This document shows positions 18,138-46,846 of a stretch of DNA of 64,000 bases, piece by piece. The notes beneath the pieces were generated by a model. The model was not told the DNA's origin. It saw nothing but the letters and a program-made list of their open reading frames with translations, and made no database searches. A program made the translations under genes and the position numbers. Source of the stretch: Chrysomallon squamiferum. Taxonomy: Eukaryota > Animalia > Mollusca. The stretch spans positions 11,470,001-11,534,000 of the forward strand of contig CM022665.1 of the NCBI GenBank assembly GCA_012295275.1. Direction: 5' to 3'. Position 1 is the stretch's first letter; every line of letters begins with the position of its first letter.

Positions 18138-18172
<35 letters not shown>

Positions 18173-21100
18173 GTTAGTTATTACTATTGTTGTTTGAGAA
18201 AAAGAGCCAAAAAAAAAAAAAAAAAAAAAACAAACAATCCAAAACATGATAATTATCTTGTATATTTCTTATGTTATGGTTTTTTCCCTAACTGTTCAAA
18301 ACCTTCCATTTTCTTTTTTTCAGAGATCTCAAAATTGAAATCAAATCCATCTATCAAATTCACAGACCTGTCGAAGATAGCAGTTTTCTTCATGATATGA
18401 CCAACACTCAGCTACTATTTCATGCATCCAAAGCTGAAAATTTTGTTGGAATTCTTTCCAGGTGAAATGATGTAGTGGATCATTCAGTGTCATCTCTATC
18501 ACTTTTGGGGCATTTTTTGCACAGCCCTGTCAGATTTCTGTAAATTTTAATAAACCAATAGAGTTCCAGGAAAGAACATGTCCATCCTGTTGCTATATAA
18601 AATTTCATAGAAATTTGAGTGGGGTATGTTTTAGGTAATAGAGATGACATAGATAAGCCTTTTTTTCAAACAATAATATCATTTGCTTGGACCTGATACA
18701 TGAAGATGCATGCAAACAATTAGTGTTCTGTTCAAGCTAGTTTTATATATTCAAAGTAAAATGTAATGAATAAATTAATTTTTATTCATAAGAATTTCTC
18801 TTTTTTTATCATCTAATTTTATTTCTTATACATATGATTAATGGTTGCCTGTAATTTATTTTTCATCAGTTATTCAGTTATTGATCACTTACATATAAAT
18901 AGTACAGTAGTGTTGAGTATTATTTATGATCAGCAAACATCCATCACATTATCACATATCTTAGCAGTTCTTGTAGTTGAAATGTTTTGTTTCTCTTTAT
19001 TTTTACTGTGTTTTAATCCTACATACATTTTGTTCATTAAATAATATTATTTTTTAAACAAATATATAATCCATGACCATAAATTGATTATTTTACAGAG
19101 GCCTGTTACTGCCTAAAATAGTTGTTGATGATTATGGTGGATCTCGGACTGATGTTGGCATGTTGGGAAATGGCCTATACTTTGCTAGTTCAGCCAGGTA
19201 AGTGTGAAATAAATAAATGATAAATCTGTATTTAATTCATTTCAGTCACAATACACTAAGTCATAACAAGATATCTGGTGATCATACAGTACTGGGTATT
19301 GTCTACATCACCATAGTTCAAATGTTTTACATTTGATATGTAATATGGAATTAGACATAACTCATATATAAAGGATTTGCCACTTCAGACCATTTACTTA
19401 TTTCATATACATGTGATGTCAAATAATAATATGGTTAGGTGTTGTAGAATCAGTGTTCATTCATTTATTTTCATTTATATTAAAATGCATATTTATTTGC
19501 ATAATTGGCATTTGTCGTTATAAAAGAAAAAAAATGAGAGTAAAAATATAACAAAAAACCCCTCCAAATATGTTGCCAAATATTACTTGTGAACAAATAA
19601 ATAATGAGTTTTAGAAAAAACAAACCTCTGCCAAAATGCACATACTGATCCAAATGTATATTAATTTTGTTTTCCAGCACAAGTGCCAAATACTCAAAGG
19701 CAAGCAAGACCAAAGGGACACGACTCATGCTGATAAACAAGGTTGCTTTAGGCAGGTGTATGGATGTGTACAAACACAACACTGAACTAAATGGACCACC
19801 AGAGGGCTATGACAGTGTTCATGGAGTCAGAAAGACTGATAATAATGATTCAGATTTTGTGGTAAATTATTTGTTTTTCAGTTAATTAATTGCTGAAAAC
19901 ATTTGTGCTTGTGTGTTTTTTATGTGTGCATGTATATCTGTGAATATCTGTTTGTATATGTGGGTATGTACGTGTGTGTGTGTGTAACATGTGTGCATGC
20001 ATAGGTGTATATATTTGTATACATGCTTCTTTTGTATGCATGTATATTACAGTCATGTTTCTGTTACATATGGGTATGCGTCTGATAGATTTTAAGCCAT
20101 ATTATAGATGTTATATAATCTCCTTTTCTCACTGTAGGATGATGAGTATGTAATATACTCTCTCAGCCAGCAAAAAATCATGTATTTGGTTGAATTTGTT
20201 CTGGAAGGAGATACCATAACTAACATCAACATTGGAGAAACTGAGGAAAACCTGGATGAAGAAACACACTCAGACATCACTATCATAGGTTTGTTTTCAC
20301 ATTATACAATGCCAACAAAATCATCAGTAACTACCTTAGTAAGAAACACACACTGTAAAATAATGACTTATAGGTCTACAATTAAATATTTATTTATATG
20401 AAAACAAAGTTGAAAAATATAAAATAATAATAACACCAAATATTTATCAGTATAATTTATACAGGATAAAAAAACAGAAAATGTTTGAGTAATAAAATTT
20501 GGTTATTATGTTATGTATTTAATTAGATTATTATGTTGTATTTATTATATATTTAGTTTGATTATCATGTTGCATTACTATATTTTAATTTGATTATCTT
20601 GTTATATTTATTATATTTTGAGTTTGATCATTATATTTTATTCAGTTATCATTTATCAGCATATTTTAAGACCAGTACTGTATAAATGATGATAACACAT
20701 ATTTAAAAAAATCTAATTATCTAGATGTTCAAAAACTCCAAGAATTAGAGGATCCCATTTCAAAAGTGAAGTCAGGTTTGATCTGTGACCAGCAGGAGAA
20801 TGCAGTAGATCTTAAAGCTGTACATGTCAAAGCTAGACTTGTAGATTTGGCTTCAGAGGTAATGTTTCAATGCATATTTACAGTTTGTTTGAGAAAAACA
20901 AACAACTATGAGGAACTATGAATTATGTGTGCCAAGAAAATGAATATTGTTTCACAAGCCTTTTTCAAATTTATAATGCTATTCCACAAGAGATTTCAGA
21001 ATTGTTCAAATTGTGCATATGTTACCCTTAATCTTTCAGTCAATATGGGCAGACTTAAAAAGTTTGTGCAACTATCACCCTTAAACTTCAAACAAGTACT

Positions 21101-24100
21101 ACTAATAAATAAAAATAGATATTTATTATATAAAAGCATTTTTTGTTCAATTAATATATATTCAAATAATCCACCAATTCACAGGTTTTGCATTTTTTAA
21201 ATCTATTGTGATATGTTGATTAGTTTTCTTGTGCCTAATTTTATACTTTTTTGGTAAATAAGTGAAATCAAACAAATGATCACTGTAGCACTGTAGTTAA
21301 AAAACTGGCTCAGAATTTGATGGAATGGATATTTGAATCAGTCTTCTTTAATTTTTCTGTATTATTTTCCATACAAACCAGTGTTCCATGACTGATTTAT
21401 CAAAGGTTAAATTTACTATCTGTTATAGGAATGCGAATAAGGAAGGTTATTGACAGATTTCCTGTGATTCATTGAATTTTATTGTTGATTATCAATGACT
21501 GATACCACACAAGGAGTGCTGTTTCTCTCCAGAATGTATTTTAAACAAATTGATGCTAAACAAATTGTTATTGTTACTGTGTTATTATTATTATTATTAT
21601 TATTTAATTAATTAATTAATTATAATTATTATATTGCATTTTATTGTACTGATTGTATTGTATCATATTGTATTATATATATCATTTATCATATATAATC
21701 ATATCATTTTATATTTTATTATTATTATTATTATTATTATTATCTATTTTTTAATTTTAATTTTATTTCATTTCCTTATTTCTTTATTTCTTTTGTCCTT
21801 GCAGGTGATAGTCATGCAAGAGTACTCTAACAACTTGGACATTGCTGTTGAAGCAAAATTTATTTTTCCTCTGGATGACATGGCTGCAGTGTGTGGCTTT
21901 GAAGCTTTCATCAACGGCAAACACATAATAGGAGAAGTGAAGGAGAAGGAGACTGCTCATAAGGAGTACAAGAAAGCCATCAGTGAAGGTCATGGTGCAT
22001 ATCTCATGGACCGTGATGAAGAAACTCCAGTCAGTAATAATAATCATAATTCTAAAAAAAAGTAGTAATAATAACTCTTAATAACAAATAATAATAATAA
22101 TAGTAATAATTCGTTGTTGTATGGGTTGGATATATATATTTTGTAATTTGGTCATTATTGTTCTTATCATTTATTTTTATTTACTTTTATTTTTATTTTA
22201 CTTTTTTCCTTTTTGTTCTCTTTGCAGGATGTTTTCATAGTCAGTGTTGGTAATCTCCCACCAAAAGCGCATGTGCTAATTAAAATAACCTATGTAGCTG
22301 AATTACAGGTAGAAGGGGAGGTAATCAATTTCCGACTTCCTGGCAGTGTGGCACCATGGAAAGAGAACTCTGCTATCAAAGAAACTACACAGGTTAATGT
22401 TTGTTTTGATGGTAGACTTCCAGTTAATTTATTTGTTTTAAAAATCACCAATGTTTACTAACAGATAAGTTAGAAAATAAGTGAGGAGAAGTAGAGAAGT
22501 TACTTTCTGCCTTTCTCATGACATTGTTTTATAAGAGTAAAAGACAATACATGCATGTGCATGTGTGTGTGGGTGTGTGTGTTTGTATGTGTATCCTGTA
22601 TGTATTGTTGACATGTTTAACATAACTTGTTGTACATTCATAAATATAATGTTTATAGATATTTTCTTTAAGACTGTTTATATTTTAAAAATAAGTCACT
22701 GTGGTATATTTGTAGACTGAGCTGGGCACACACAAAGTACAGAGCGGTAAAACAACAGTTCAGGTATCCATTGACATGCCTTTCAATATCCACAGCCTTG
22801 AATGTCCCACACACAAACTCAGAATTAAAGTAAGAGCCTTATCTACTTATTGTTATAAATCTTTTTGTTTTCACTAAATAATTTGTTTTGAATGTATGTA
22901 TGCGTGTATTTATAAACATACATAACAGTGTAGGTAACTATTTATGTGCATAGTTCATATATCTGTGTGATTATCTGTATACACAGGCAATTGTGAATGT
23001 GTCTATGTATATTTACAATACTGTGAATATGTTATTCATATATAATGTTGACTATATCATCATATGTCTGTAGAAATTTGATTTTATATAATCTGTGTAT
23101 TTATCTTTGTAATATATAATAATATATGTGTATATCAATATAATTTATTCTTTATTAATATTCCTTCTTACGGTTTTATGTATATGTTGGTAAATGTCTT
23201 TACTTGTATATATCTAATTGGCTGTTTTTCTCTCAGAGAACTGACACCAAAGCTGTGATTGAGACGATGGAGAACCAGTCTTTTGATGATGGCTTCCTAC
23301 TGCTCATTGGTCTCTCAGAAATACATGTCCCAAGAATGTGGGTGGAGAATCATCCATCACAGCAACATCATCAGGTACATGCTGAAAGCAAGACAGGAGA
23401 AAGACAGACGACAGAGAAAGAAAGTCAGTGAGTGAAGAGTTAGTGAGTGAATGAGTTTGAGAGAGAAAGAGAGAGATTTATAGAAAGAGCAGGACGGTCA
23501 GACATAGACAAAGACAGAGAGCAAGACCGACATACACAGAAAAAGACACACAGAGAGAATTTGACTGAGAGTGAGTGTGTATAATTACTTTATTATAAAA
23601 TAATTAGCTTACTTAGCATAGATACACTTGAATAGTGTATATCGTGATTTGTCAAGAGTCTCTATTCAATGACATTAATTTTTTCAGTAGTCTCTTCTAT
23701 TAAATAAATGCTTTAATATTTATTATTTAGGCTTGCATGTTGACATTTTACCCAGAGTTTGAGGCAGGAGAGCAGAAGGACCTGGAGATTGTATTTCTCT
23801 TAGATCTCTCAAATTCAATGAAAGGATCAGCTCTTGAAGATGCCAAAAATGTTCTTTCTCTAATGTTGAGTCGATTGCCATCCCATGCTTTGTATAATAT
23901 TATTGTGTTTGGAACAGGTGTGTTAGACTTTGATGTTTTCTCATTGGTCAAAAAATTTAATTTTAATAAATAATAATGCATTTACTGATTTTGTTTTATC
24001 TCTGTGTAAAGAGAAATAAAGTTTTGGCATATTTTAAATGTTTATAATCTACAAATGTATAAATTTTCTTTTGCAGGGATTGTTTTATTTAATGACATTC

Positions 24101-26585
24101 TTGGCACATCTGTAATCAAAATAATTTGTGCCAAGTTATTCTCTATAAATTATCATAAATTTTAATTATGTTATATAATGTTTATATCATGATACAACTT
24201 CGTCACATGTTTTTTTTTATCAATAAATTATGAATGTTATATGTTATGTACAAGGTAATACAAGTTCATCAAAATAACCTTAAACATCTATTTAAAGATT
24301 TTTTAATAATATTTCTCTCTTTCTTTATATATTGTTTTCTTTTTTCTTTTTAAACATCCCAAATTGTAATATTATAAAGCTTTATATAAAGTTAATTCTG
24401 ATTACAGTCACTTACAAGTAACTGTTAAAATAACTGATCATCCATTGCATAACTGAATTGTATATATTTGTTGTTATTGATATGTTTTATTGTTACAAAT
24501 TTCAGCATACAGTGAGCTATTCCCAGTTAATGAGGCCAACACTCCTAGCAATACAGCCAGGGCTCGCAAATTTATAATGGTAAATAAAGATAATGTTAAA
24601 CAAAAATGGATGAACAAATGTTTATTAATGGTTCCCCAACATATCTGATGAGATAATTTTCAATTTTGTGGTCATTTTTCTCTTAGGCAAGTTTTTATTT
24701 AAAAAAAAAAAAAATGAACCTTGATTACTGGCATTTTTTTATTTTTATTTTTTTTAGTGTTTGTTTTTGTATGAAACTATGTCAGCCATCACAATCCAAA
24801 TGAGCTTGTTATATTATTAGGAAAATGTATATAGGTTTTCACACATTCTCTTCAACTTTTTGTTTTTTCATTTTATTTTCATAAATATCAATTTTTTTCA
24901 AAGAGAGAATTATATTATTTTTTTGTAGGATGCTGAAGCCAATCTTGGAAATACTGATGTTTTCCAACCACTACATTCAAATTACCTACTTGAGTCAGAG
25001 AGTTCCGTGAAAAACATTTTTCTTATCAGTGATGGACACATCAACAATGAAGATGCTGTCCTCCAAGCTGCTTTAAACCATGCAGCACACTCGAGACTCT
25101 TCACATGTGGAGTCAGGTACACACTTTAATTTAACTGTCACAATGTTACAGATAAAATCATATCACAATCCTACAGTTACCAAAAACAAAAAACACAAGA
25201 TGATTTTATGTTGTTTAATCCTTTTTTATCTGGCAAGACAGTGTTTATTTAATGCTAATTATTTTGTTGTAGTTCATAATTATTGACATTATTGTAGTTA
25301 GTGTCGTTACGTCAGTGGCAGACATTACACTATGGTGCTTCTGCTTCCTTCCCTTTTGATGTCGGAAATTTGATATTCTATCTATTTATTTATTTTTGCA
25401 TTATTATTATTATTAGTGCAATAGTTTTAATTGAAAAGCACATTCTCTTTTAGCTCAACATCCAATGTACATTTACTTAGATCATTAGCTAGAGTTGGAG
25501 GTGGAGCATTTGAATTCTTTGACAGAAAGGCAAAGTCAAAATGGGATAGGAAGGTAACCATAACTGATCTAAAGCATATTAACAATATTTATAAAATATA
25601 AATTACAGAATTCTATTTAAAAAGTATAATAATATTTAATTTAACAATATTGTGTTTAAAAAGTATAACAATAATTAACAATATTATGTTTAAAAAGTGT
25701 AACAGTATTTAATTTGACAATATTCTGTTTAGAAAGTTAAACATTATTAATAAATTCTGTTTATATATTACAGTCAATTTAGAAAGTATTACAATGTTTA
25801 AATTACACTCTTTTTTAAATTTATCAGCTGGAATAGCTTACAAATTACTGTATTTTGAAAATCATTCTTTGTGTCAGTTTGTTCATTAATACAAAGATTC
25901 ATTTAAATATTAGAGTGTTGTCCTTACAAATAAAATTCATTTCTCAGATAAGTGTTTTGTTACAGCATTCTTTGAACAAATTACAAAAGGCCAACCAATT
26001 TATTTATTTATTTATTTATTTATTTTTGTTTCTTCTTTTTCTTTACAATAATAACTAAATGCTATATGTTTTATATTCAGGTAAAAAACCCAGAACAAAT
26101 AACTAAATGTAAGACTCTTATTATTCAGGTAGAAAGATGAGGTATAATGATAACTAAATTCCAGACTCTTGTTTTCTGAGGTTCAAAAAAAAAGAAAGAA
26201 GCCCAGATATGATAACTAAATGCCAGACACATATTACTCAAGTACAAAACCTGGATATAATTGATAGTTATATTCTTATTATTCAGGTGAAAAACCAGAT
26301 ATAATAATAACTAAATACCAAATACTTATTATTTAGGTGAAAAACCAACTGACCAAGGCAGCCCAGCCAGGTTTGACATCTGTTTCAGTTGAGTGGCGAC
26401 AGTTTGATGAAGATCCAGACAAGCTGCCACAAGCTCCTCGGCAAATTACATCTCTGTTCAGTGGATCACGACAGGTTGTCTATGGATATGTACCAAACTG
26501 TACCATGGTTGGTAGTTACTGTAAATTGTAATACGTTTTTCATTCATTTTGTATATGGACAAACCTTCAAGCAGAGCATACACAC

Positions 26586-26646
<61 letters not shown>

Positions 26647-29600
26647 CACACACTGTGAATACATATATACATACATACATACATACATACATACCTACAT
26701 ATGTACAGATATACATACCTACATATGTACAGATATACATACATGCATACATGTATACATATATACACACACATATATAAACATTGACATACTGACAAAA
26801 ACAACATGCTTACAAACCTTAACATATACATATATAAACAATACACAGCCTTCTTTTTATTTATTTTGGTTGATATTATTTTTATTTTTTTTATTATTAC
26901 TTTTACTGTTACAATCATTATAACATTTATTAATTTATTACTTTTTTTAATTTTATCTTTCTATATATATTTTTACTTTATTTTTTTAATTATTATACAT
27001 TTGTTTTTTCACAGGCCACATTAAAAGCTGTAGTAGGTGGACAAGAAGTTTGTACAGTTGTTTCAACTTCAGATCTCAGCATCACAGAAGGACTGGTAAT
27101 AATTACAGTGATAATTCATAAATCCAAACGTGTTAAGTTGGAATGTCTCCAGCTATTTATCTGTAAAGTTCTACTACAAGCAATACTTAATGGAAATTAA
27201 GTTATTAGCTAAATTGTTAGAGTATTGGATTCTCAAGGTTCCTGGTTCAAAACTCTTTGCAGAGGTTCACTAAACTGTTAGAAAACAATTGAGTATTACT
27301 GATCCACATACGTGTGTTCTTCATTTTTAAAGAATTATTTGCAAAAGAGATAGTGGCCTTCATATATTACATTCAAATATTATAAACTATTCAATGCAAA
27401 AGACACAAATGAGAAAAAACAGAAGGAAAAATTGACACAGATGCTTAAAGAAGACAAAGAGGACAAGAAATTGAGAGAGAAAGGAAAAAGTTTGAGAGAA
27501 AGATGGAAAAATATGGAATAAAAGAAATGGAGACGGATGAATAATATGAAGGAAGGTTGATAGAGAAAGCCCTGTTTAAACAAATGAAACTGAGAGAGAA
27601 CAAGAGGGAGGGAAGAATGGATATTAGAATATCAAGATAGAAATAAAAAATATATAGAGATCCTTAAATATTAAAATTTAAAAAGCATGATGTATTTTTC
27701 TGTGTATGGAAGCTAAATGAAACAAAGATTAAATTATTTGTATTGTTCTGCAGACTGTTCATAGACTGACTGCCCGGGCTATAATAAGAGACTGGGAGGA
27801 TGGCATGCTTTCTTCAGACCGTACCAGGCATGAGGTATGTGGTTATTTTATATAAGAAAATGTCCAGTGTAGTCTAATTTTGTGATCACACTGTAATAAA
27901 AACTTTAAATTTAGTGTGAACATAAAATGCATGTTTGTTGACAACTGATCACATACAGACCCAACTTGATGTTGACCACAGTAGTCACTTATTTTCCTAG
28001 CTGGATGTAGACCACACTGGACATTTACTTACTTCGTCCAGTATAGACCATACACTTACTTACTAGTAGAATGTTTACTTATCTAGTTGGATGTATATTA
28101 CACTGGACATTTAGTTACTAGCAGGATGTTGGTCACATGGTCACTTCCTTATCTAGCTGGATGTTGACTTACCCTGATCACTTACTTACTTGGCTTAATG
28201 TAGACCAAATTGGTCACTTACTTGTGTAGCTGGATGTTGAAAATATTATTCCCACTGCTTCCATTCCTGACATCCAGAATCTTAATCTTTTGTTACTTGC
28301 TATTTTCAGATGTTGAAGATGAATCTGAAACAATACATCATTGACTTGAGCACAGAATATTCTATTGTCACCCAGTTTACAAGTTTTGTAGCAGTGGAGA
28401 AACGAGATGAGGTTGGTTGTTTAACATTTGTGTTTCTATTTTCATTAAAAAATATTTTTGCATTAATCAAAACTGTATTCAGTCCATGATGGAACAGTTA
28501 TTTCTTAAATAGACTACATGGAAAATGTAAACAGTACCTTGAGGCATTGTGATGTTAACACATAATTAGGTGTCTGGCTTTTCTTTTTTTTTTTTATCTT
28601 GATGATTTAAGAGAGAAAAATGGTTACTGCCAAGAACAAGTAATTCTTTATGTTGACCTTCTCATAAACATGAAAGCATATATCATAATTTGATAAATCA
28701 ATGGAGACACCGAAAATGATTATTTTTCACCTATGATCTTTCAGAACACTGAATTACAGCCCACTTAAAAATGACTCTGAATCCTATCGTTGGTAAACCA
28801 TCATAAATAAATAAATATAATAAAGCTACAATGAAATAAAACATAAAGAACTGTAATGTAATATAATGTAATATAATGAAATGTAAATTATAAAAAAAAT
28901 AATAATAAATTACAAAACATGAATTCAAAATGGTGTATAATTTAAAAAAAAAAAAAAAATTGTTGTTGTTTTTTTTTTTTTTTCTAATTTTTAATTTTAT
29001 TTTATAATTTCAGGATGAAAAAGCAGGTAAATGGACCAGTACAGGACCAACTATGTTCCAGCTTGTTGAACAGGAGTGTGCAGATATTTTGCCATACTTG
29101 TCCTGGATAACAGACAAAGATGACATTATGGAGGTCGTACAAGTGAGCATTATTTTTATATATAAACATGGAGAATTGGGGTTTAATGGATAGGAATGGG
29201 AATGGCTATTTTGAGTATATTTGTTTTTATGATAAGTGTTTATCTGTGTTAAGTGTGTGTGTGTCTGTGTAATGTAAATGGATGAATATGTTTAAAGTGT
29301 CAGTGGTTGTGTTAAGGAATATTTGTTTTTAATGAAAGAATAATTTTGTGTTTATTCATCTGTCCTGTGGTTAGAAACAGAATATTGTGTGTACTAAATT
29401 GACAAAAATAAACTAATCACATTATCACTATCAGTGAATGATATAGATTGAAATGTCAAAGTTAAGTGTTTTCAGGTGATCTGTTAAATCTGGTTCTCTC
29501 TAAGTAATGTGGTCATTACTCCCTTCAGTGCCACAGAACTCAAACTTTTTTTATCTTTTGTATCCAGTTCTTGCACAAACTAAAACAACATATAGTTATA

Positions 29601-31347
29601 AGTGACCCAGAAAGTGAGGAAGAATGTGTGTACTGCACATACATCATACACACACACACTCACACACACAAACACACACACACACACACAGGCATTCCTT
29701 GCCTTCTACATACATTATATATAATTTCCTTAAGTCCATAGATGAATACCTACATATGTACATACAAATCTACTCAAATACACACACACATTCTTATACA
29801 TATACACATTAGACTACATACCTATATACACACATACATACACACATCCATACACACATCCATCTATCCATCCATCCATCCATCTGAAAGCCTGTCATCT
29901 ACACACATGCTTACTTTACCTTCATTATACAAAGTGCATCAGTTTAACGATTATTATTTGTCAAATATAAAGTTTGTGTTTTAAAACTTTAAGTAATATT
30001 CTGCTGTTATTTTGATAGAGGAAAAAAACTGAAGAATATGCAATGTAGGATGCTAATATCACTGTACTTAATAACAAGACTAATTAATCAGCCAAAACAG
30101 TTTATTTGGCTGAACCTGTTTGTTGTACTCAAGCAAAACCTGTATTTTTCTTTCAAGTCTTTTTTTTTTATATTTTTATTTAATATAATTTTTTTTTTTT
30201 CAGAAAAGTCATATTATGCCATTATTAGGTGAGCATTTCTTATTGTTTGAGAGAGGATGTAAGAATTGTGCATAAAAGGATCTTTGGTGGTATATATTTT
30301 CTTATGCTAGTATTTTAGTTCTTACTGGATCCCAGTCTTTGCTAATAACAAATCATATAATAAAATAATATATGGAGGCTGACATTTTCCTTTTTTATTA
30401 TATCAATTCATAAAGGTATGTAAAAATAAAAGAATTTAAATTTTAAAAACAAATATGTAAAACAGGTAAATTATTGCCTTATCTTCAATCACACTATGTT
30501 CTGACATTTCCAAGCACAAAATAATACCACAGTAAAATAGAAAACATCCATAAACACACAAGCTTTTTTATTTCATTGACACATACTTCATTATTAGCAA
30601 AGACTGGCCATTAGAGTGGAAGTATTCCAAACATAGGCCAGATATTTTGTATCACCAAAGTGACACTTTAACTTCCTACAGTTCCGAATGATGTGAGACA
30701 AGTGACATTAAAAACACTGACAAGCAAATCAGTTGAATTTTCACTTCTTGCCTCAAACACCATTGCTGATTTTAAAGCTGACTTACAAGCAGTAAAGGGA
30801 ATTCCTACTAACCAACTAAGACTGATATACAGAGGCAGACTGCTTGTTGACAGTCACACTCTGGCTCATTGCAATATAACAGACACATCTGTGGTTCATC
30901 TTGTACTCAGATTAAGGGGAGGTTGACCACTGCTCAGAGCTGATTCAGACAGAGCAATGGATAGAAGATCATTTTTAAGTGTTGCTTTTGAACTAAGTGG
31001 AAATGGTAGGTTTAGAATGTATGGTTTGAGAAAGAGATATGATTATACTGTGTTTACACCATTATTTCTGAGCAGAGTTGTAAGTTGCACATGATAGTCT
31101 ACTTTATTTCAAAACATCTTTTACTTATGCACCTTCTCACCAACAGGCTAATTGCACCACTGGCATCATCAGTGCCAAACAGACAGGTACTTTACTACTG
31201 ACTCATTAAAACATTTTATTACTACTGCATGCATTGTTATTTTGATAGCGGAAAAAATTGAAGATGATGAAATGCTGACAGAGCAAAGTGACTCAGAAAG
31301 TGAGGAAGAATGTGAGTACTGCACATACATTACACACACACTTACAT

Positions 31348-31382
<35 letters not shown>

Positions 31383-31674
31383 GGCATTCCTTTCCTTCTA
31401 CATAAATGGCACTATAAACACATCAGTTACAGTCTTAATTTCCTTAAGGTAATTTACATACAAAATATCTAATTAACAATAACAGTTATTATTTGTCAGA
31501 TATAAAGACTGTGTTTTAAGTAATATTCTGCTATTATTTTGATAGATCAAGAAACTAAAGCATTGGCAATCTTTGATGATGAAGATTATGAAAAAAATGC
31601 CATAGGTGAATATCTATCCATCAGTCCATAGATGAATACCTACATATGTACATACAAATGTACACAAATATACA

Positions 31675-31717
<43 letters not shown>

Positions 31718-34700
31718 ATAAGTACATACACACTAGACTACATACCACTAAACTACATTACACTACACTGAACAACATTGCATTACACTTCATACATACA
31801 CACATCCATCCATCTGAAAGCCTGTCATCTACACACATGCTTACTCTACCTTCATTTTAAAACTTCATCAGTTTAATGATTATTATTTGTCAAATACAGT
31901 GGATGCCTTGACTTATGAGTTTAATTGTTCCGTGGCCGAGCTTGTAACTCAAATCTGCATGTATATCAAATCAATTTTCCCAACTGAAATTAATTGAAAT
32001 ACCTTTATCCATTCCAGCCCCCTAAAAACCACCCCATTTTGTTTTGTAGCGTGTTTTTAAATAAGAAAAATGTATTTATAAATAACAAATATTGTATAAA
32101 AACACAAAATAAAATAGAATGTAAAGAAATAAATTGGTTTTGTAAAGTGTATTAATCTTGGACATCAGACAAATTATTTTAACACCTTTGGTTGGAGTTA
32201 CAGCCTTTATCAACTCCTTCTGCTTCAGTATGATACTATGCTCGTACTGCTTAGCCAAATCGACTACATGCACAACGCTCATATTTTTTTATGATTTCAT
32301 GTTTTAATTCAATGGACATCATCCGCTTCTTCTTCTCAGCACTGTCCTTTACACTCACTTTCTTAGGATCCATGGTCATAAAAAGAAATTTGGCAAAATT
32401 CTGCACAAAACATGAACACACCACAACAGAGATGCTTCTGCAGTGAGGTAATTATGTGAAGTAAACGAGTGAGATGCAGGATGCTGGCCAGATGTTGTGT
32501 TGTTTCTTGCACTGAAACTTATTTGTAACTCGGATTTTGGCTGGCAACTCAAAGCACAAAGTCAACTATGCGACTGCTCGTAACTTGGAAAACTCATAAG
32601 TTGGGGCACTCGAAAGTCAAGGTACCACTGTATAAAGTTGTGTTTTAAAACTTTAAGTAATACTCTGCTCTTATTTTGATAGAGGAACAGTATGATGAAT
32701 GTGCAGTGTATGGTGCTAGTGAATTCTCAGAAAGTGACAAAGGTGAATATCTATCCATCAGAATCTTTGGTGGTATATATTTTCTTATTCTACTATTTTA
32801 GTTCTTACTGGACCCCAGTCTTTGCTAATAACAAATCATATAATAAAATAATATATGGAGGCTGGCATTTTCCTTTTTTATTATATCAATTCATAAAGGT
32901 ATGTAAAAATAAAAGAATTTAAATTTTAAAAAACAAATATGTAAACCAGGTAAATTATTGCCTTATTTTCAATAACACTATGTTCTGACATTTCCAAGCA
33001 CAAAATAATACCACAGTAAAATAGAAAACATCCATAAACACACAAGCATTTTTATTTCATTGACACATACTTCATTATTAGCAAAGACTGGCCATAAGAG
33101 TGGAAGTATTCCAAACATAGGCCAGATATTTTGTATCACCAAAGTGACACTTTAACTTCCTACAGTTCCGAATGATGTGAGACAAGTGACATTAAAAACA
33201 CTGACAAGCAAATCAGTTGAATTTTCACTTCTTGCCTCAAACACCATTGCTGATTTTAAAGCTGACATACAAGCAGTAAAGGGAATTCCTACTAACCAAC
33301 TAAGACTGATATACAGAGGCAGACTGCTTGTTGACAGTCACACTCTGGCTCATTGCAATATAACAGACACATCTGTGGTTCATCTTGTACTCAGATTAAG
33401 GGGAGGTTGACCACTGCTCAGAGCTGATTCAGACAGAGCAATGGATAGAAGATCATTTTTAAGTGTTGCTTTTGAACTAAGTGGAAATGGTAGGTTTAGA
33501 ATGTATGGTTTGAGAAAGAGATATGATTATACTGTGTTTACACCATTATTTCTGAGCAGAGTTGTAAGTTGCACATGATAGTCTACTTTATTTCAAAACA
33601 TCTTTTACTTATGCACCTTCTCACCGACAGGCTAATTGCACCACTGGCATCATCAGTGCCAAACAGACAGGTACTTTACTACTGACTCATTAAAACATTT
33701 TATTACTACTGCATGCATTGTTATTTTGATAGCGGAAAAAATTGAAGATGATGAAATGCTGAGAGAGGAAAGAGACTCAGAAAGTGAGGAAGAAAGTGAC
33801 TCAGAAAGTGAGGAAGAAAGTGGCTCAGAAAGTGAGGAAGAATGTGAGTACTGCACATACAACACACACACACACACACAGGCATTCCTTTCCTTCTACA
33901 TAAATGGCACTATAAACACATCAGTTACAGTCTTAATTTCCTTAAGTCCATAGATGAATACCTACATATGTACATACAAATCTACTTAAATACACACACA
34001 CACAAACACACATTCTTATACATATACACATTAGACTACACATCTCTAAACTACATTACATTACACTACATTGCACAACATTGCATTACACTACATACAT
34101 ACATACATACATACATACATACATACATACACACATCCATCTATCCATCCATCCATCCATCCATCTGAAAGCCTGTCATCTACTCACATGCTTACTTTAC
34201 CTTCATTTTAAAACTGCATCAGTTTAATGCTTATTATTTGTCAAATATAAAGTTTGTGTAAAACTTTAAGTAATATTCTGCTGTTATTTTGATAGAGGAA
34301 AAAACTGAATTCTTTAAAAAAAAAAAAAAATGTATTTTGTTTTTTTTAATTTTTAAATTTTATTTTATTTTATTTCCTGTAATTATATCACAATAATCTA
34401 TATACATTATATGAATAGATAAAAAACATAGAAGTCATTAGAAAAGAAAATGCTCTTTGCCTTATGGGCTAGTCACTCTTTTATATACGTCTTTAGAAAA
34501 GTGACAAAAGAACATGTAACAGCTTTTGGTAAACAAGTCATGAGATTGGTTGGATTGGGAAATGGTCCTATGCTTTAACAATTGAGTCTGGCTTTTCCTA
34601 GTATATCATAACAGAAATCTTGATTACTTCTGGTATCTTTTTTTTTATATACACATATATATATATATTTATACAGATATCACATTTTATTTTTATTTAT

Positions 34701-37292
34701 TTTCTTGTTCCAGCTGAAACGCTTTATGAGAATGCAGAAGAAGATGGTAAGATCATAGTTATCTTTTCTTTTATAAAAATATTTATGATCTGTCATCATT
34801 AATGACATTAAAATAATAGTGTTACTCTGAATGCTGTTGTTTTATTCTGGGACTGCAACATCATCATATACACAGTGGACTGATATCTGTATTTTTTATG
34901 TTATACATATATAAAATACAGTTATCAATGTGTTCACACACACACACACACACTTTTTACAGTGAAATGATCCAGTTCTGATCAAAGAAGACTAAATCAG
35001 TGTTACTAATCAAGATTCAATAGCCAAAAAAATTAACAGAACAATGCAGAATATATTTAGACTATTTCTTTTTATCACCAGAAGTACACTGTAAGCAGTA
35101 ACATTAGTTAACAATTATTTTGCTTCTTTAATTTTTATTTTTATTATAAATGCTATGTAACTGTCTAAAAGTAATCCTACTTTTACTAAACAGTAATATT
35201 TAAAATACCAGTACCTGAATTGGTTAACTAAGATGATACTGACTAAGTTATTCACATGTAACAAAGAGGCTCATTCTCTTCTGGTTTTGTTTCAGGACGA
35301 AGAGAAAAAGAAAGAGAAGAAGAAGAAGAATTGGTAGAATCTTTTTCAAGAGGATCAGAAGAATTCACTGAAGTTGGGTCGTCAGTTCCTCGAGCTGTAT
35401 CAAAACAAGTTCCCCAAGCTCAAGAACCAACCTCTCAGACTGTATCAGATGTTCCCGCCAATGCCATGCCAGTGTTATCTAAATCCATAATGGCATTGAA
35501 AAGAAGCAAAATTATGCGAAAAGTATCATATGGAAGAGAGGATACAACTAGCCTGTTTGAACAATCTGATCCACAAGAGGAAATAGCAGTCAAAGGTAGG
35601 TCTGAGCATTCTGAGCCTGGGATAAGGTTTAAGAGTATGGAAGAAAAACCAGTTGCAGAGTTTCAGTCTAGGTTTTTTTCAAGGAAGGTATCAGATAGTT
35701 AAAGAGGAACAATACCTGTAATGGTTGACATAGATGATACTGACTAAGTTATTCACATGTAACAAAGAAGCTCATTCACTTCTTGTTTTGTTTCAGGACT
35801 AAGACTAAAAAAAGGAGATGAAGAAGAAGAAGAAAAAATGAAAGATTATTTTTTAAGAGCATCAGAAGAATTCATTCAAGTTGGGTCATCAGTTCTTCCA
35901 GCTGCATCTAAAAGTTCAAAATCACTGGCATCCAGAATTTCTGACTCTGCTGTATCAGTTGGGAAAAGAGGAACAATGGGAAAAGAGAAAGCATTATTTC
36001 CAAAAGCATCATTTCAAATGCAAAAAGCAGAAATTTATAAACCTGTGGTAAAGCCTGTTGCAGTGTGTAGTTCTTATTCATCAAAAGCAGGTCGCGTATC
36101 CTACACAGCCATGTCAATAGAACAACAGTCATCACCACCTGCACCACCACATGTACCAAAACGTGTACAAAAAGTGTCCAACCTATCGTTATCAGCTTTA
36201 TCACAACCCCAATACCTATCAACACACTTTGATATAACTCAACAACAACAGTCACCACCACCTGCACAACCACCTGCACGACCACCTGCACCACCACCTG
36301 TATCACCACCTGTACCACCACCTGTACCAGAACGTGTACGAAAATTGCCCAAACTATCGTTATCAGCTTTATCACAACCCCAATGCCTATCAACACACTT
36401 TGATATAACTCAACAACAACAGTCATTACCACCTGCACGACCACCTGCACGAACACCTGTATCACCACCTGTACCACCACCTGGTACAGAACGTGTACGA
36501 AAATTGCCCAAATATCGTTATCATCTTTATCACAACCCCAATGCCTATCAACACACTTTGATATAACTCAACAACAACAAAGTCAGATGCACCCAGACCT
36601 CGACCACTCTCAGGTACAGCTTCAGAACAATGGCATAGACATTGTGCATCTTTATCGGAAGAAGTGTATGATCAAATTCAGATGCAACCAGACCTCGATG
36701 AAACAAACACATACACTGATGTTATGGACTTGATTAATGAACAGACCACTGTAAGTGTTACAATTTAGTAAATAGCTCTTCACAACACACACACACACAC
36801 ACACACACACAGATAAATACGTACACACACATATAGATACAGATACACATACATTCATACAGTCATAACCATACATGTATACACATGCACTGTGTGTGTG
36901 TATATTATTATTATTACAACACAAAACTATTATAATTGATCCCATTTCTATTTTTATGTAAAACAGTTCTGTCAGATCTTTCCTTTTTGTGATAATGTTT
37001 TTACATTTCATTGACAGGATGGTTATTGGGAACTAAAGGATGATCTTGACTGTTTACTCAGAAACATTCTGCAGAAAACTGGACTAAGTACACTGAGTAA
37101 GAAAAAAATGTACTATCTGTCAGAAAACTTTGGGGTGGTCATAAAGTATCTGACAGTTTAAAATATTTCCATATTTCCATTCTGTTTGTTTCTTTATTAT
37201 TATGTTTTTTAAACTTATTTATTTTGCTAGTTAGATTTAGTTAGTTATGAATATTTATGTTTATTATTTAATTTATTTATTTATATTTTACC

Positions 37293-37337
<45 letters not shown>

Positions 37338-37977
37338 TATCTTATTTATTTTTATTTTTTTTATTTTTATTTATTTACATTATTAATATATGATTTTTTT
37401 ATTTTGTATGTTTATTTAATTTATTCAGTTTTATCAATTTTTATAAAAACAAAATTTAAATAACAGTTGTTATTATTAAATTTATAGTTTCTTATTATTT
37501 ATTTATTTTTGAATGCATCTAATTTATTAATTACTATTGTTATTAATTTTTATAGGTCCTAAAGTTAGCAATGAATTCCATCGTACTTTAGTAACAATAA
37601 TGGCACTACTCTACATCTATGAAGTAATCATGCCAGAATTGTTTCCCTTGGATCCTCAAACCATCAACACCGAATGGAGCGGGGTAAAACTGATTGAAAA
37701 ACAATTTTGTCAACAATGGGAGGAAGTTTTGAAAAGAATGACAGGTCACTTGACTCCATCTGATGTCAACAAAGTAACAAATGCTGTCAAAAAAGGATTC
37801 AGTTACTGGAAAGAGTTTGATAGCAGATACCCTCTCATCTATTACATTTTAGAACTCGGGCCCAACTGGTTATCAGTAATCAGGTCTTTAATCTGTAGGT
37901 TTGGCAGTTCATTTTGGATACTCCAAAATAAACTCCTATTTAAAAACACTGGCTGGAAGACACTTGAATTGCATTAA
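9296..37977 (+). CDS. PARP4: Vault poly(ADP-ribose) polymerase PARP4/VPARP, multi-exon gene
   Basis: Phase-consistent GT-AG exons: 9296-9328 (candidate ATG exon), 12437-12574, 12891-13089, 13753-13895, 14449-14586, 15144-15305, 16063-16200, 17097-17267, 17788-17948, 18324-18461, 19099-19197, 19678-19861, 20138-20288, 20725-20858, 21805-22029, 22228-22392, 22716-22829, 23237-23374, 23731-23917, 24506-24579, 24929-25116, 25454-25553, 26337-26507, 27015-27095, 27754-27834, 28310-28411, 29014-29142 (1248 codons). Then a variable cassette region, 35296-35595, 35797-36750, 37018-37096 and 37556-37977. The BRCT-PARP-VIT-VWA-MVP-interacting domain order is diagnostic of PARP4. Confidence 0.95.
11222..12376. 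mobile_element. Unclassified ~1.15 kb interspersed insertion in PARP4 intron 1 (possible solo LTR)
   Basis: High-complexity, GC-richer, microsatellite-free block beginning TGT and ending ACA. No TSD or coding remnant seen. Confidence 0.3.
12437..13089 (+). CDS. PARP4: PARP4 BRCT domain exons (12437-12574, 12891-13089)
   Basis: GVFSGCQIVL...KKIIENGGIVSFIVTKK|STHVV...IPVISPEFIWDAITTGRLPNPDDY carries the BRCT hallmarks (GG turn, THxV, conserved W). Confidence 0.9.
13753..17948 (+). CDS. PARP4: PARP4 WGR-like and helical regulatory domain exons
   Basis: Six in-phase exons (13753-13895, 14449-14586, 15144-15305, 16063-16200, 17097-17267, 17788-17948), including EIAKYA, VLELH, QIEKAEAILLQI, KQDLCQLIKDMVSV and AKYRALRCRI. 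Confidence 0.88.
13965..14425. repeat. Degenerate intronic minisatellite
   Basis: Recurrent cattttattgtttgtaa.atttaaaacaag.atatt and ttcacatttacaa motifs. Confidence 0.6.
17285..17665. repeat. ~100 bp tandem repeat, about 4 copies
   Basis: Recurrent gatcattttaaataatttagtg.actaatatt..tttttgaaag. Confidence 0.7.
18324..20288 (+). CDS. PARP4: PARP4 catalytic ADP-ribosyltransferase domain exons
   Basis: Exons 18324-18461 (LLFHAS), 19099-19197 (RTDVGMLGNGLYFA), 19678-19861 (TSAKYS...VALG...GYDSVHGV) and 20138-20288 (DDEYVIY...YLVEF). H-Y-E triad present. Confidence 0.95.
20725..23374 (+). CDS. PARP4: PARP4 VIT domain and following exons
   Basis: Exons 20725-20858, 21805-22029 (EAKFIFPLDDMAAVCGFEAFINGKHIIGEVKEKE), 22228-22392 (VSVGNLPPKA), 22716-22829 and 23237-23374 (HVPRMWVE). 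Confidence 0.93.
23731..29142 (+). CDS. PARP4: PARP4 VWA domain and post-VWA exons
   Basis: MIDAS DLSNS (23731-23917), NLGNTD and LISDGH (24929-25116), LARVGGG (25454-25553), HRLTARAIIRDWEDG (27754-27834) and TQFTSFVAVE (28310-28411). Confidence 0.93.
25590..25810. repeat. ~35 bp AT-rich minisatellite
   Basis: Recurrent tttaaaaagtataacaatatttaatttaacaatatt. Confidence 0.65.
26050..26347 (+). repeat. ~50 bp minisatellite built from the PARP4 intron/exon junction
   Basis: About 6 copies of ataactaaat..ccagactcttattattcAG|GTgaaaaacc. The last copy is the true acceptor at 26336. Confidence 0.8.
27960..28240. repeat. ~35-37 bp minisatellite
   Basis: Recurrent tagctggatgtagaccacactggtcacttacttact. 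Confidence 0.8.
29568..29625 (+). CDS. PARP4: Candidate PARP4 linker exon (FLHKLKQHIVISDPESEEE), phase 0 to 1
   Basis: Acceptor ttttgtatccag, 58 nt, donor GTGTGT. Its 3' half is homologous to the DSESEEE acidic exons. Confidence 0.5.
30019..30060 (+). pseudogene. Decayed copy of the acidic cassette exon (pseudo-exon); a second truncated copy starts at 34296
   Basis: Same acceptor (ttaagtaatattctgctgttattttgatag) followed by AG GAA AAA AAC TGA. It has an extra A, a further TAG and no donor. Confidence 0.55.
30204..30228 (+). CDS. PARP4: Candidate PARP4 micro-exon (KSHIMPLL), phase 0 to 1
   Basis: Strong poly-T-cag acceptor, 25 nt, donor AG|GTGAGC. Confidence 0.55.
30682..30926 (+). CDS. Ubiquitin-like domain exon, copy 1 (ends LRLRGG-stop), within PARP4
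   Basis: Acceptor ctttaacttcctacag ending 30681, phase 1. The 76-aa domain aligns to ubiquitin without gaps (36/76 identical by hand). No in-frame ATG (in-frame TAA at 30669-30671). TGA at 30924-30926 and a possible donor GAG|GTTGAC after 30921. Confidence 0.85.
31249..31311 (+). CDS. PARP4: Acidic cassette exon (EKIEDDEMLTEQSDSESEEE), phase 1-1
   Basis: Acceptor ttattttgatag, 63 nt, donor GTGAGT. Confidence 0.65.
31546..31605 (+). CDS. PARP4: Acidic cassette exon (QETKALAIFDDEDYEKNAI), phase 1-1
   Basis: Acceptor ttattttgatag, 60 nt, donor AG|GTGAAT. Confidence 0.65.
   Translation: MKKLKHWQSLMMKIMKKMP
31897..32630 (-). mobile_element. Internally deleted Tigger/pogo (Tc1-mariner superfamily) DNA transposon, 734 bp
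   Basis: TIRs CAGTGGATGCCTTGACTTATGAGT and (reverse complement) CAGTGGTACCTTGACTTTCGAGT. TA duplication at 31895-31896 and 32631-32632, confirmed by paralogous empty sites tcaaaTAtaaag at 29961 and 34241. Frameshifted transposase N-terminus on - strand from 32373: MDPKKVSVKDSAEKKKRMMSIELKHEII.../VVDLAKQYE..ILKQKELIKAVTPTKGVKII (CENP-B-type HTH). Confidence 0.92.
32683..32742 (+). CDS. PARP4: Acidic cassette exon (EQYDECAVYGASEFSESDK), phase 1-1
   Basis: Acceptor ttattttgatag, 60 nt, donor AG|GTGAAT. Confidence 0.65.
33166..33410 (+). CDS. Ubiquitin-like domain exon, copy 2 (ends LRLRGG-stop), within PARP4
   Basis: Same acceptor and structure as copy 1, offset by 2484 bp. I see one nucleotide difference (T30783 vs A33267, L30I), giving 37/76 identity to ubiquitin. 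Confidence 0.85.
33733..33843 (+). CDS. PARP4: Acidic cassette exon with three 24-nt DSESEEES units, phase 1-1
   Basis: Paralog of 31249-31311. 111 nt, donor GTGAGT. Confidence 0.65.
34714..34746 (+). CDS. PARP4: Acidic micro-exon (ETLYENAEED), phase 1-1
   Basis: Acceptor tttcttgttccag, 33 nt, donor G|GTAAGA. Confidence 0.7.
35296..35595 (+). CDS. PARP4: PARP4 disordered linker exon, phase 1-1
   Basis: Acceptor ttttgtttcag, 300 nt open, donor AAG|GTAGGT. Overlaps ORF 35331-35702. Confidence 0.75.
35797..36750 (+). CDS. PARP4: PARP4 large Pro/Ser/Gln-rich linker exon, frame-disrupted as assembled
   Basis: Acceptor ttttgtttcag and three internal Pro-rich repeats. The frame stops at 36566, but the exon end DLINEQTT|GTAAGT (36750) lies in another frame and joins DGYWEL of the next exon. 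Confidence 0.7.
37018..37977 (+). CDS. PARP4: PARP4 C-terminal MVP-interacting domain exons (37018-37096, 37556-37977)
   Basis: QTT|DGYWEL, TGLSTLSPKV, LVTIMAL and YPLIYYILELGPNW resemble the PARP4 C-terminus (QxxDGxW; YPxxxxxLELGxxW). Ends TAA at 37975-37977. Confidence 0.88.
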
Positions 37978-45900: not shown

Positions 45901-46846
45901 CTTTTTTTCTTCTTCTTCTTTAGTAATCTTCTTCGTGATCTCTTTTTTCTTCTTCTTCTTTAGTAATCTTCTTCATCATCTTCTTTTTTTCTTCTTTTTC
46001 TTTAGTAATCTTCTTCATCATCTCTTTTTTCTTCTTCTTCTTTAGTAATCTTCTTCATCATCTTCTTTTTCTTTAGTAATCTTCCTTTTCTTCAGTAATC
46101 TTCTTCATCATCTTTTTTTTCTTTTTTTCTTTAGTAATCTTCTTCATCATCTCTTTTTTCTTCTTTTTCTTTAGTAATCTTCTTCATCATCTTCTGTTTT
46201 CTTCTTTTTCTTTTGTAATCTTCTTCATCATCTCTTTTTCTTCTTCTTCTTTAGTAATCTTCTTCATCATCTTCTTTTTTCTTCTTTTTCTTTAGTAATC
46301 TTCTTCATCATCTCTTTTTTCTTCTTTTTCTTTAGTAATCTTCTTCATCATCTTCTTTTTCTTCTTTTTCTTTAGTAATCTTCTTCTTCATCTTCTTTTT
46401 TTTCTTCTTTTTCTTTAGTAATCCTCTTCATCATCTCTTTTTTCTTCTTCTTCTTTAGTAATCTTCTTCATCATCTTCTTTTTCTTTAGTAATCTTGATC
46501 ATCTCTTTTTTCTTCTTCTTCTTTAGTTATCTTCTTCATCATCTTCTTCTTCTTCATTAGTAATCTTCGTAATTGTCTTTTCTTCTTCATTAGTAATCTT
46601 CGTAATTGTCTTTTCTTCTTCTTTAGTAATCTTCATCATCATCTTCTTTTTCATTTTCTTCTTTAGTAATCTTCTTCATCATCTTCTTTTTTCTTCTTCC
46701 TCTTTAGAAATCTTCATCATCTTCTTTTTTCTACTTCTTTAGTAATTTTCTTTATCATCTTTATTCTTCTTCTTCTTTAGTAATCTTCATCATCATCTTT
46801 TTTCTTCTTCTTTTTCTTTAGTAATTTTCTTCATCATCTTCTTTCT
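42921..46846. repeat. ~3.9 kb pyrimidine-rich compound satellite
   Basis: Roughly 100 units of ~30-45 bp, consensus (ttc)n-tttagtaatc-ttcttcatcatc-(t)n. Confidence 0.95.

What the first reader, a model, noticed from the sequence alone, without database searches (positions are those of the whole stretch)
29568..34746. Birth-and-death array of acidic phase-1 micro-exons with conserved introns but highly diverged peptides
Seen: the acceptor (ttaagtaatattctgct)gttattttgatag recurs before 30019, 31249, 31546, 32683, 33733 and 34296. Four copies open frame-preserving exons (63, 60, 60, 111 nt) with strongly different peptides (EKIEDDEMLTEQSDSESEEE / QETKALAIFDDEDYEKNAI / EQYDECAVYGASEFSESDK), two are dead pseudo-exons, and the adjoining intron blocks remain easily alignable. 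Known: in primates the disordered PARP4 region between VWA and the MVP-interacting domain is the part under strong positive selection. Inference: the same linker is diversifying independently here by exon duplication and combinatorial splicing, as in a host-pathogen arms race.
Basis: partly seen in the sequence, partly recalled or inferred. Interest (0 to 1): 0.7.

Follow-up and report, generated by a model that had tools for sequence, protein, structure and literature searches.

The report
Host-protein decoy exons in snail PARP4
In a snail's PARP4 (vault) gene, a recently duplicated stretch holds tiny fast-changing exons and an overlooked, apparently switched-off copy of ubiquitin, and related invertebrate PARP4 proteins carry pieces of actin, 14-3-3, SNAREs, HSP70 and other core cell proteins at the same spot, which likely serve as baits for pathogen enzymes.

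Summary
The micro-exons are real. They lie in the linker of a gastropod PARP4 gene that has been tandemly duplicated. One paralogous exon pair differs at 28 of 60 bases against 4 of 64 in its flanks, so exon-over-intron divergence holds. Combinatorial splicing does not: RNA contigs string the four exons into one path, and no skip is among the joints shown. The largest 'conserved intron' holds a ubiquitin-like cassette exon, in two copies, with a stop right after LRLRGG. It is skipped in the RNA seen, reads CGA in another run, and is an in-frame cassette in Gigantopelta. Among relatives, 75 of 96 non-vertebrate PARP4s (isoforms included) and 0 of 56 vertebrate ones carry fragments of ubiquitin, actin, 14-3-3, SNAREs, HSP70, Snf7, EF-hands or the ribosomal stalk tail in this linker. 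Best reading (about 55%): an ITIH4-like bait region with integrated decoys, caught in turnover. Function is untested. Perina 2014 noted 14-3-3, actin and ubiquitin-related add-ons but read them as signalling links. This scan noted similar inserts before on other DNA (fungal and protist VIT-vWA genes).

The parts
12437..28411 (+). PARP4 exons 1-25 of my model (BRCT, PARP1-like region, catalytic domain, VIT, vWA, rest of the ITIH-like body); the start-codon exon was not found
   Evidence: Open frame across 25 exons; tblastn to Gigantopelta PARP4 at 53-96% identity; domains read off the relative's Pfam scan
29014..29142 (+). Last conserved exon before the linker (ends in phase 0)
   Evidence: spliced in RNA contigs
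29568..29625 (+). 58-nt phase 0-to-1 exon, weak donor, not on the spliced path seen; its 3' half is K-family sequence; alternative by frame to 30204
   Evidence: only unspliced contigs cover it; weak local match to the pre-ubiquitin segment of Gigantopelta (score 31)
30019..30063 (+). Dead E-family exon (extra A, in-frame stop)
30204..30228 (+).
   Evidence: GT-AG joint 30228 to 31249 in X1 and X3
30277..31448 (+). First copy of the recent tandem duplicate (second copy 32760-33946)
   Evidence: blastn 95.5% over 1187 columns; 972-nt block with 12 mismatches
30682..31005 (+). Ubiquitin-like cassette exon, copy 1: phase-1 acceptor at 30682, LRLRGG then TGA at 30924-30926, 26 further open codons, phase-1 donor at 31005 (324 nt)
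   Evidence: no splice into it among the joints shown
31205..31210 (+). ATTAAA, possible poly(A) signal behind the ubiquitin-like exon (second copy at 33689)
   Evidence: use not shown
31249..31311 (+). K-family acidic micro-exon 1 (63 nt; the RNA runs carry one more 12-nt unit)
   Evidence: tables 5, 5c
31546..31605 (+). E/Q-family micro-exon (60 nt), live
31897..32630 (.). High-copy TA-flanked DNA element with terminal inverted repeats, inserted in the intron
   Evidence: Inverted ends and TA flanks; summed contig depth near 100,000 in X5
32683..32742 (+). E/Q-family micro-exon (60 nt), live
33166..33489 (+). Ubiquitin-like cassette exon, copy 2; TGA at 33408-33410, read as CGA in run X5
33733..33843 (+). 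K-family micro-exon 2 (111 nt; 48 nt of added 12-nt units)
34296..34310 (+). Dead, truncated E-family exon start
34714..34746 (+). 33-nt phase 1-1 micro-exon (predicted)
   Evidence: not covered by the read lay
35296..36750 (+). Two larger linker exons (35296-35595, 35797-36750), Ser/Pro-rich; the second has two single-base gaps near 36510 and 36580
37018..37977 (+). Last two exons (37018-37096, 37556-37977): C-terminal MVP-interacting-type domain
   Evidence: Matches the C-termini of mollusc and fish PARP4

Best explanation
This stretch is a tandemly duplicated part of the PARP4 linker whose small exons change faster than their introns and whose ubiquitin-like exon is skipped in the RNA seen, and it likely works as a bait region in which copies of host proteins that pathogens attack are gained, altered and lost. 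Shown: the module (intron with ubiquitin-like exon, K exon, intron, E exon) has been duplicated; four acidic exons plus a 25-nt exon are spliced in series; the ubiquitin-like exon has a stop after GG in this assembly and CGA in another run; the orthologous segment is an in-frame cassette in Gigantopelta; many invertebrate PARP4s carry fragments of conserved host proteins in this linker. Inferred: a pathogen protease, deubiquitinase or modifying enzyme engages the bait; as in ITIH4, the adjacent VIT-vWA body (MIDAS intact) would hold the enzyme, or cleavage would free the catalytic half from the vault-binding C-terminal domain, and PARP4 would then ADP-ribosylate the intruder or signal. Inferred for this lineage: the 14-3-3 insert seen in Gigantopelta is gone, the ubiquitin insert is being silenced, and the acidic micro-exons are the part now diversifying. 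What they imitate, if anything, is not identified.
For: Exon vs flank divergence 28/60 vs 4/64 and 10/38 vs 7/136; differences peak at codon position 2 (8, 12, 7). Run X5 differs from the window by 3 amino-acid changes in micro-exons and 2 changes in the ubiquitin-like exon, against a silent change in a conserved exon (40 of 57 rows shown). Gigantopelta isoform X3 lacks exactly the 102-aa ubiquitin-like segment. 13 of 120 relatives carry the domain at this place. Among 233 of 343 proteins with the anchor and a tail of 150 aa or more, inserts occur in 75 of 96 non-vertebrate, 0 of 56 vertebrate and 30 of 81 unnamed proteins, and always after the anchor. Pfam confirms them as fragments: actin about 2-66 of 410, 14-3-3 about 125-223, HSP70 from about 380, the R-SNARE motif, the stalk tail. 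SNARE inserts come from different donors, Ykt6 in Ruditapes and VAMP2-type in Crassostrea virginica, which points to separate captures. After LxGG, Pro follows in 15 of 26 distinct modules against 4.6% background, and Ub-Pro fusions are not cleaved (PMC9703124, passage), so the insert looks built to stay attached. ITIH4 uses a variable region behind the same VIT-vWA body as protease bait (PMC7793589, abstract and passages). The primate linker is under positive selection (PMC4038475).
Against: No binding, cleavage or immune function is tested for any insert. dN/dS alone is not significant (p 0.2), and the short flanks (44 + 20 nt) may be held by splice signals or gene conversion. None of the eight module profiles convincingly matches this window's acidic exons (stalk profile -2.2 bits, 510 of 1000 shuffles as high). 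Counts include isoforms and close kin, and the profiles were seeded from the same set. 14-3-3 and actin inserts are ancient (Capsaspora, amoebae; PMC4245714), which fits a conserved housekeeping role as well. RNA evidence is contigs from 3 runs of one study, and the tissue was not established. The window's ubiquitin-like copy has lost G10 (35 of 35 relatives) and Q41 (32 of 35), which fits plain decay.
Confidence: 0.55

Rival explanations
1. The linker is a permissive disordered spacer: exons drift or slip, flanks are kept alike by splice constraint or conversion, and the inserts are either tolerated passengers or docking sites that link PARP4 to the cell's own ubiquitin, cytoskeleton and signalling systems (Perina 2014's reading). 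The ubiquitin-like exon here is simply a decaying pseudo-exon.
For: dN/dS not significant; loss of G10 and Q41 and an Ile-to-Lys core change in X5; repeat-unit length changes in K exons; old 14-3-3 and actin inserts; vertebrates do without inserts.
Against: Drift would not make exons diverge 5-8 times more than intron sequence 80-150 nt from the splice site. The inserts are drawn only from highly conserved hub proteins, are fragments that cannot do the donor's job, and were captured from different donors.
Confidence: 0.25
2. The TGA allele is adaptive: splicing into the ubiquitin-like exon with polyadenylation at ATTAAA would make a short PARP4 ending in a free LRLRGG that could be conjugated to proteins like ubiquitin or ISG15.
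For: The stop lies exactly after GG in both copies; junction codons are in frame; ATTAAA lies 280 nt downstream; L8, I44, H68, V70, R42, R72 and R74 are kept.
Against: No joint into the acceptor among those shown; contigs run unspliced across it and on past ATTAAA; X5 has CGA; in relatives the domain is internal.
Confidence: 0.08
3. The stop turns the cassette into a poison exon: inclusion would send the mRNA to nonsense-mediated decay and so tune PARP4 levels.
For: The stop is 79 nt upstream of an intact phase-1 donor, beyond the 50-55 nt rule (recalled); decay would hide the included form from RNA contigs; the exon is a cassette in Gigantopelta.
Against: The stop is not fixed (X5); the duplication is recent; no inclusion junction seen.
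Confidence: 0.07
4. One reading: the micro-exons are combined by alternative splicing into many isoforms.
For: All four are phase 1-1; the two K exons share their first 30 nt, so a skip from 30228 to 33733 cannot be excluded in contigs.
Against: One contig path with equal depth across both inner joints (52.5 in X1, 11.4 in X3); K-to-E junctions give TAG; human and rhesus ESTs always include the selected exon.
Confidence: 0.05

Closest known systems
PARP4/vault PARP with appended 14-3-3, actin and ubiquitin-related domains (Perina et al. 2014, PMC4245714; passages read)
   Same: Same family and the same kinds of add-on domain, in amoebae, Capsaspora, lancelet and sea urchin.
   Different: In the passages read the add-ons are taken as links to signalling, cytoskeleton and ubiquitination. 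Not covered there: molluscan ubiquitin cassettes, SNARE, HSP70, Snf7, EF-hand or stalk inserts, their fragmentary nature, the GG-Pro bias, or exon-level turnover.
Primate and bat PARP4 exon 30 (Daugherty et al. 2014, PMC4038475; passages read) and the linker-cleavage idea of Suskiewicz et al. 2023 (PMC10450202, section 21 read)
   Same: Same linker between the ITIH-like body and the MVP-interacting domain; fast protein change.
   Different: There, one large disordered exon with no recognisable domain, always included; here, duplicated micro-exons plus a folded host-protein copy.
ITIH4 protease-susceptible (bait) region (PMC7793589; abstract and passages read)
   Same: VIT-vWA body with MIDAS followed by a long, variable region.
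   Different: ITIH4 is a plasma protein that traps host proteases and has no PARP domain; no trapping is shown for PARP4.
Plant NLR integrated domains (PMC4759884; abstract read); NLRP1B as integrated decoy (PMC13037943; search listing only)
   Same: Lineage-specific copies of pathogen-targeted host proteins fused at one position of a conserved chassis.
   Different: The chassis here is an ADP-ribosyltransferase, not an NLR; effector binding and signalling are untested.
Ubiquitin-like modifiers and ubiquitin fusions (ISG15, UBA52-type; recalled)
   Same: Ubiquitin fold with LRLRGG; about 47% identical to ubiquitin by eye on the alignment.
   Different: Internal, mostly followed by Pro in relatives; here skipped in the RNA seen and not shown to be processed or conjugated.

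Membership tests
PARP4 (clade 5) | BRCT - PARP catalytic - VIT - vWA order | tested here: met
   Exons match Gigantopelta PARP4 in order, whose domains were scanned; Pfam was not run on these window exons themselves
PARP4 (clade 5) | H-Y-E catalytic triad and vWA MIDAS | tested here: met
   LFHAS, LYFAS, DDEYV and DLSNS motifs in the translated exons; motif identity recalled
PARP4 (clade 5) | C-terminal MVP-interacting-type domain | tested here: met
   Last exon matches C-termini of relatives, best E 2e-8 in a local set of 343
PARP4 (clade 5) | Binds vaults; ADP-ribosylates | not testable with these tools
   None
Conjugatable ubiquitin-like modifier | Ubiquitin-family domain | tested here: met
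   PF00240 at 78.6 and 80.3 bits, cut-off 25.4; PDB ubiquitin matches
Conjugatable ubiquitin-like modifier | Free C-terminal Gly-Gly in an expressed product | tested here: inconclusive
   TGA after GG in the window, CGA in X5, internal in relatives; no spliced inclusion among the joints shown
Conjugatable ubiquitin-like modifier | E1/E2/E3-dependent conjugation | not testable with these tools
   None
Integrated-decoy receptor | Copy of a conserved host protein fused into a conserved chassis | tested here: met
Integrated-decoy receptor | Diverse, lineage-specific, repeated integrations at one site | tested here: met
   Eight kinds counted plus PDZ, WH2, Pol II CTD, FG-like repeat and Roc hits; different SNARE donors; no tree was built
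Integrated-decoy receptor | Donor proteins are pathogen-effector targets | not tested
   Recalled for ubiquitin, actin, SNAREs, HSP70, 14-3-3, calmodulin and the ribosomal stalk; no call
Integrated-decoy receptor | Effector action on the insert triggers a defence output | not testable with these tools
   None; so filed as 'works like', not as a member
ITIH4/alpha-2-macroglobulin-type bait region | Variable region directly behind a VIT-vWA body with intact MIDAS | tested here: met
ITIH4/alpha-2-macroglobulin-type bait region | Cleavage leads to an inhibitory complex | not testable with these tools
   None
Combinatorial or mutually exclusive exon array (Dscam-like; recalled) | Duplicated exons used as alternatives | tested here: not met
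   Serial inclusion in RNA contigs; stop-forming junctions; limited to one study

The most novel reading that the evidence does not exclude
PARP4 of invertebrates is an animal integrated-decoy enzyme: its linker is an exon-shuffled array of fragments of ubiquitin, actin, 14-3-3, SNAREs, HSP70, ESCRT-III, calmodulin-like EF-hands and the ribosomal stalk that lure pathogen effectors, with the ITIH-like body as trap and ADP-ribosylation as output. This locus catches one decoy (ubiquitin) being switched off while new acidic baits duplicate and diversify, and primate exon 30 is the domain-less remnant of the same bait slot. That would give vaults a testable immune function.
Probability: 0.45. Interest if true: 0.9.

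Novelty: new variant of a known kind. Interest (0 to 1): 0.72.

Why it matters
What PARP4 and vaults do is a long-open question, and why the PARP4 linker evolves so fast in primates is unexplained. If invertebrate linkers are arrays of baits, the inserts name the host targets under attack in each lineage, as plant integrated domains do, and make the question directly testable: swap or delete an insert and ask whether infection cleaves or activates PARP4. Even without that, the locus shows a folded host-protein copy hidden as a skipped exon, with a stop that differs between samples, next to exons diverging several times faster than their introns.

Tried and rejected
No whole genome is held for this window. 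A search with the ubiquitin-like domain for longer proteins found none at E 0.001 among 443 candidates, a false negative, as one search shows. The atlas gave only generic ubiquitin-like clusters. I thought the spliced acidic exons resembled the ribosomal stalk tail: not supported (-2.2 bits; 510 and 601 of 1000 shuffles as high). Weak EF-hand (4.6 bits) and Snf7 (2.8 bits) scores in the same test beat most shuffles but are low, came from eight profiles tried, and are not accepted. No 14-3-3 remnant was found in the window by tblastn or profile. 26 open codons after the stop arise by chance about 15% of the time, so they are weak evidence alone. Unspliced RNA cover of the ubiquitin-like region (depth 19.6 in X1, 5.9 in X3) is close to twice that of other introns and is not taken as expression of the exon. 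X5 contig depths (about 47 single-copy, 26 at the duplicate junction, 72 in the shared block) would fit a duplication on one haplotype, but the tool states depth is no copy number, so this is a lead only. Assembly artefact for the duplicate: rejected, as both K exons sit on one RNA path. The region past 34290 has no read evidence. Paper searches for a decoy reading of PARP4 found none: 0 papers; 2 listed, not on point by title and abstract start; listings only. The library lacks most subscription papers, and Fig. 1B and supplements of PMC4245714 were not seen. No structure, complex or tree was computed.
Full report
Setting. The window holds an intron-rich PARP4 gene on the + strand from about 12.4 to 38 kb. 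A 36-exon model is open from 12437 to the large exon at 35797, which has two single-base gaps, and resumes in the last two exons. The closest protein is Gigantopelta aegis PARP4-like, 93% identical over the VIT exon and 53-96% over the other matched exons. The organism is therefore a gastropod near Gigantopelta (inference). The finding lies in the linker between the ITIH-like body and the C-terminal domain.

Observation. The long acceptor occurs four times with none expected by chance; the two K exons share only its short core. Sizes, phases and peptides are as stated. Self-comparison shows a module of [intron beta, K exon, intron alpha, E exon] in two near-identical copies (30277-31448 and 32760-33946) plus an older partial copy upstream, and a TA-flanked high-copy element at 31897-32630.

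Exons 31546 and 32683 are both 60 nt, align without gaps and differ at 28 sites; their flanks differ at 3 of 44 upstream and 1 of 20 downstream (Fisher p 1.5e-7). The dead exon 30019 differs from 32683 at 10 of 38 sites against 7 of 136 in intron alpha (p 5e-4). Differences by codon position are 8, 12 and 7; pN 0.52, pS 0.27, dN/dS about 2.6, not significant on 19 codons (p 0.2). The K pair has 3 changes, all non-synonymous, in 63 nt against 13 in 1075 intron sites (p 0.054), plus 48 nt of added repeat units. The test is met, with the caveat that short flanks may be constrained or converted.

Splicing. Five runs hold the stretch, four on record as RNA from one study. I laid three RNA runs and X5 (kind not on record; it shows no splice joint among those listed) on 28250-34290; all are contigs. 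The RNA allele of 31249 has one more 12-nt unit. No exon-skipping joint is among the 15 shown; 33 are not shown, and contigs drop rare forms. K exons end in T and E exons begin with AG, so K-to-E joins give TAG: free combination is not possible. This argues against combinatorial splicing.

The overlooked exon. Intron beta contains an 84-codon frame ending LRLRGG-TGA in both copies, a full-length ubiquitin-family match, with a phase-1 acceptor at 30682/33166 and a phase-1 donor at 31005/33489. It is 57-59% identical to an internal domain of Gigantopelta PARP4, and the Gigantopelta isoform X3 lacks exactly that 102-aa segment, so it is an annotated cassette there. Here only unspliced contigs cover it. 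In X5 the stop reads CGA and Ile30 reads Lys. By ubiquitin numbering, the window copy keeps L8, Q40, R42, I44, H68, V70, R72, R74 and GG, but has lost G10 (35 of 35 distinct relatives) and Q41 (32 of 35). I read it as an ancestral in-frame cassette now mostly or wholly silenced; a poison-exon or free-GG role remains open.

The family pattern. 13 of the 120 proteins listed carry the ubiquitin-like domain right after the same anchor, all from molluscs. A second search and a representative search widened the set to 343 proteins. Pfam scans of 24 and 19 proteins, most picked for their extra domains, place actin (profile about 2-66 of 410), 14-3-3 (about 125-223), HSP70 (from about 380), synaptobrevin, Snf7, EF-hand, ribosomal-stalk, PDZ, WH2, Pol II CTD, FG-like repeat and Roc matches behind the vWA region in sponges, cnidarians, molluscs, an annelid, echinoderms, hemichordates, lancelets and Capsaspora. 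110 proteins lacked the anchor or the tail and were left out. Isoforms and kin inflate these counts. Paralogues in Mytilus and two Dysidea proteins carry different sets. The SNARE insert is Ykt6-like in Ruditapes, VAMP2-like in Crassostrea virginica and closest to VAMP4/8 in Dysidea. After LxGG the next residue is Pro in 15, Gly in 7, Leu in 2, His in 1 and Arg in 1 of 26 distinct modules, against 4.6% Pro nearby; Ub-Pro fusions escape cleavage (PMC9703124, one passage). Gigantopelta has a 14-3-3 insert before its ubiquitin domain; the window has no trace of it. The window's acidic exons match none of the profiles convincingly.

Mechanism. Fragments of highly conserved hub proteins, unable to do the donor's work, swapped among lineages at one site, are the signature of plant integrated domains (PMC4759884, abstract). 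That these donors are common targets or cofactors of pathogen enzymes is recalled, not tested. The site is the one where ITIH4, which shares the VIT-vWA body, has its variable bait region whose cleavage yields a MIDAS-dependent complex (PMC7793589), and where primate PARP4 is under positive selection (PMC4038475) and was suggested to be cut or modified by viruses (PMC10450202). I therefore commit, at about 55%, to a bait linker in turnover: engagement of a bait would trap the enzyme or uncouple the catalytic half from the vault, with ADP-ribosylation as output. Every step after 'the inserts exist and turn over' is inference.

Prior art. Perina et al. 2014 reported 14-3-3, actin and ubiquitin-related add-ons and read them as cellular links (passages); Citarelli et al. 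2010 describe only the core architecture in the passages read. Eight searches aimed at PARP4 inserts or decoys showed no paper with a decoy reading of PARP4; the library is incomplete and I saw only listings for most hits. Earlier notes of this scan describe histone-tail and stalk copies in a fungal PARP4/ITIH-like linker, Pol II heptads in a protist VIT-vWA linker, a VWA5A array with variable loops, and a bacterial linker mosaic. They are unchecked, two of them concluded against a decoy role, and my reading was fixed before I opened them.

Verdict. Observation confirmed and incomplete; interpretation partly supported. New variant of a known kind; interest 0.72. The decoy-enzyme reading has probability about 0.45 and would deserve 0.9.

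Noticed in passing
window 35797-36750: Two single-base gaps (near 36510 and 36580, in a 171-nt Pro-rich tandem repeat) break the frame of the large exon; the frame resumes into the conserved last exons, so assembly error is likely but unproven.
   Followed up: partly
window 35296-35595 and 35797 onward: These two exons and their upstream introns are themselves paralogous: a further duplication in the linker.
   Followed up: no
window 31897-32630: TA-flanked inverted-repeat DNA element of very high copy number, Tc1/mariner-pogo type by its ends (class recalled).
   Followed up: partly
window 31147-31186 and 33631-33670: A 40-nt AG-GT stretch behind each ubiquitin-like exon, open in two frames; no splicing seen.
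   Followed up: partly
window 12437 and upstream: No start-codon exon found for PARP4; the relative begins three residues before the matched part.
   Followed up: partly
window 6629-7892, - strand: Exons of an Ashwin-family gene (PF15323), divergent from PARP4.
   Followed up: no
window 61767-63311, - strand: Single-exon glycosyltransferase family 92 gene (PF01697).
   Followed up: no
window about 42900-46750: Long, strongly skewed T/C-rich simple-repeat array.
   Followed up: no
proteins P0154 and P0156 (Dysidea); P0013, P0043, P0168, P0181 (Mytilus): Isoforms or paralogues within one genus carry different insert sets (ubiquitin + actin + SNARE vs ubiquitin + Snf7; actin vs ubiquitin + Roc vs EF-hand + Snf7 + HSP70 + stalk).
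   Followed up: partly
proteins P0003, P0141: The actin insert keeps the D-loop segment almost unchanged between an oyster and a sponge although most of the actin fold is absent.
   Followed up: no
proteins P0142, P0149, P0181: HSP70 inserts all begin at the hydrophobic linker between the two HSP70 domains.
   Followed up: no
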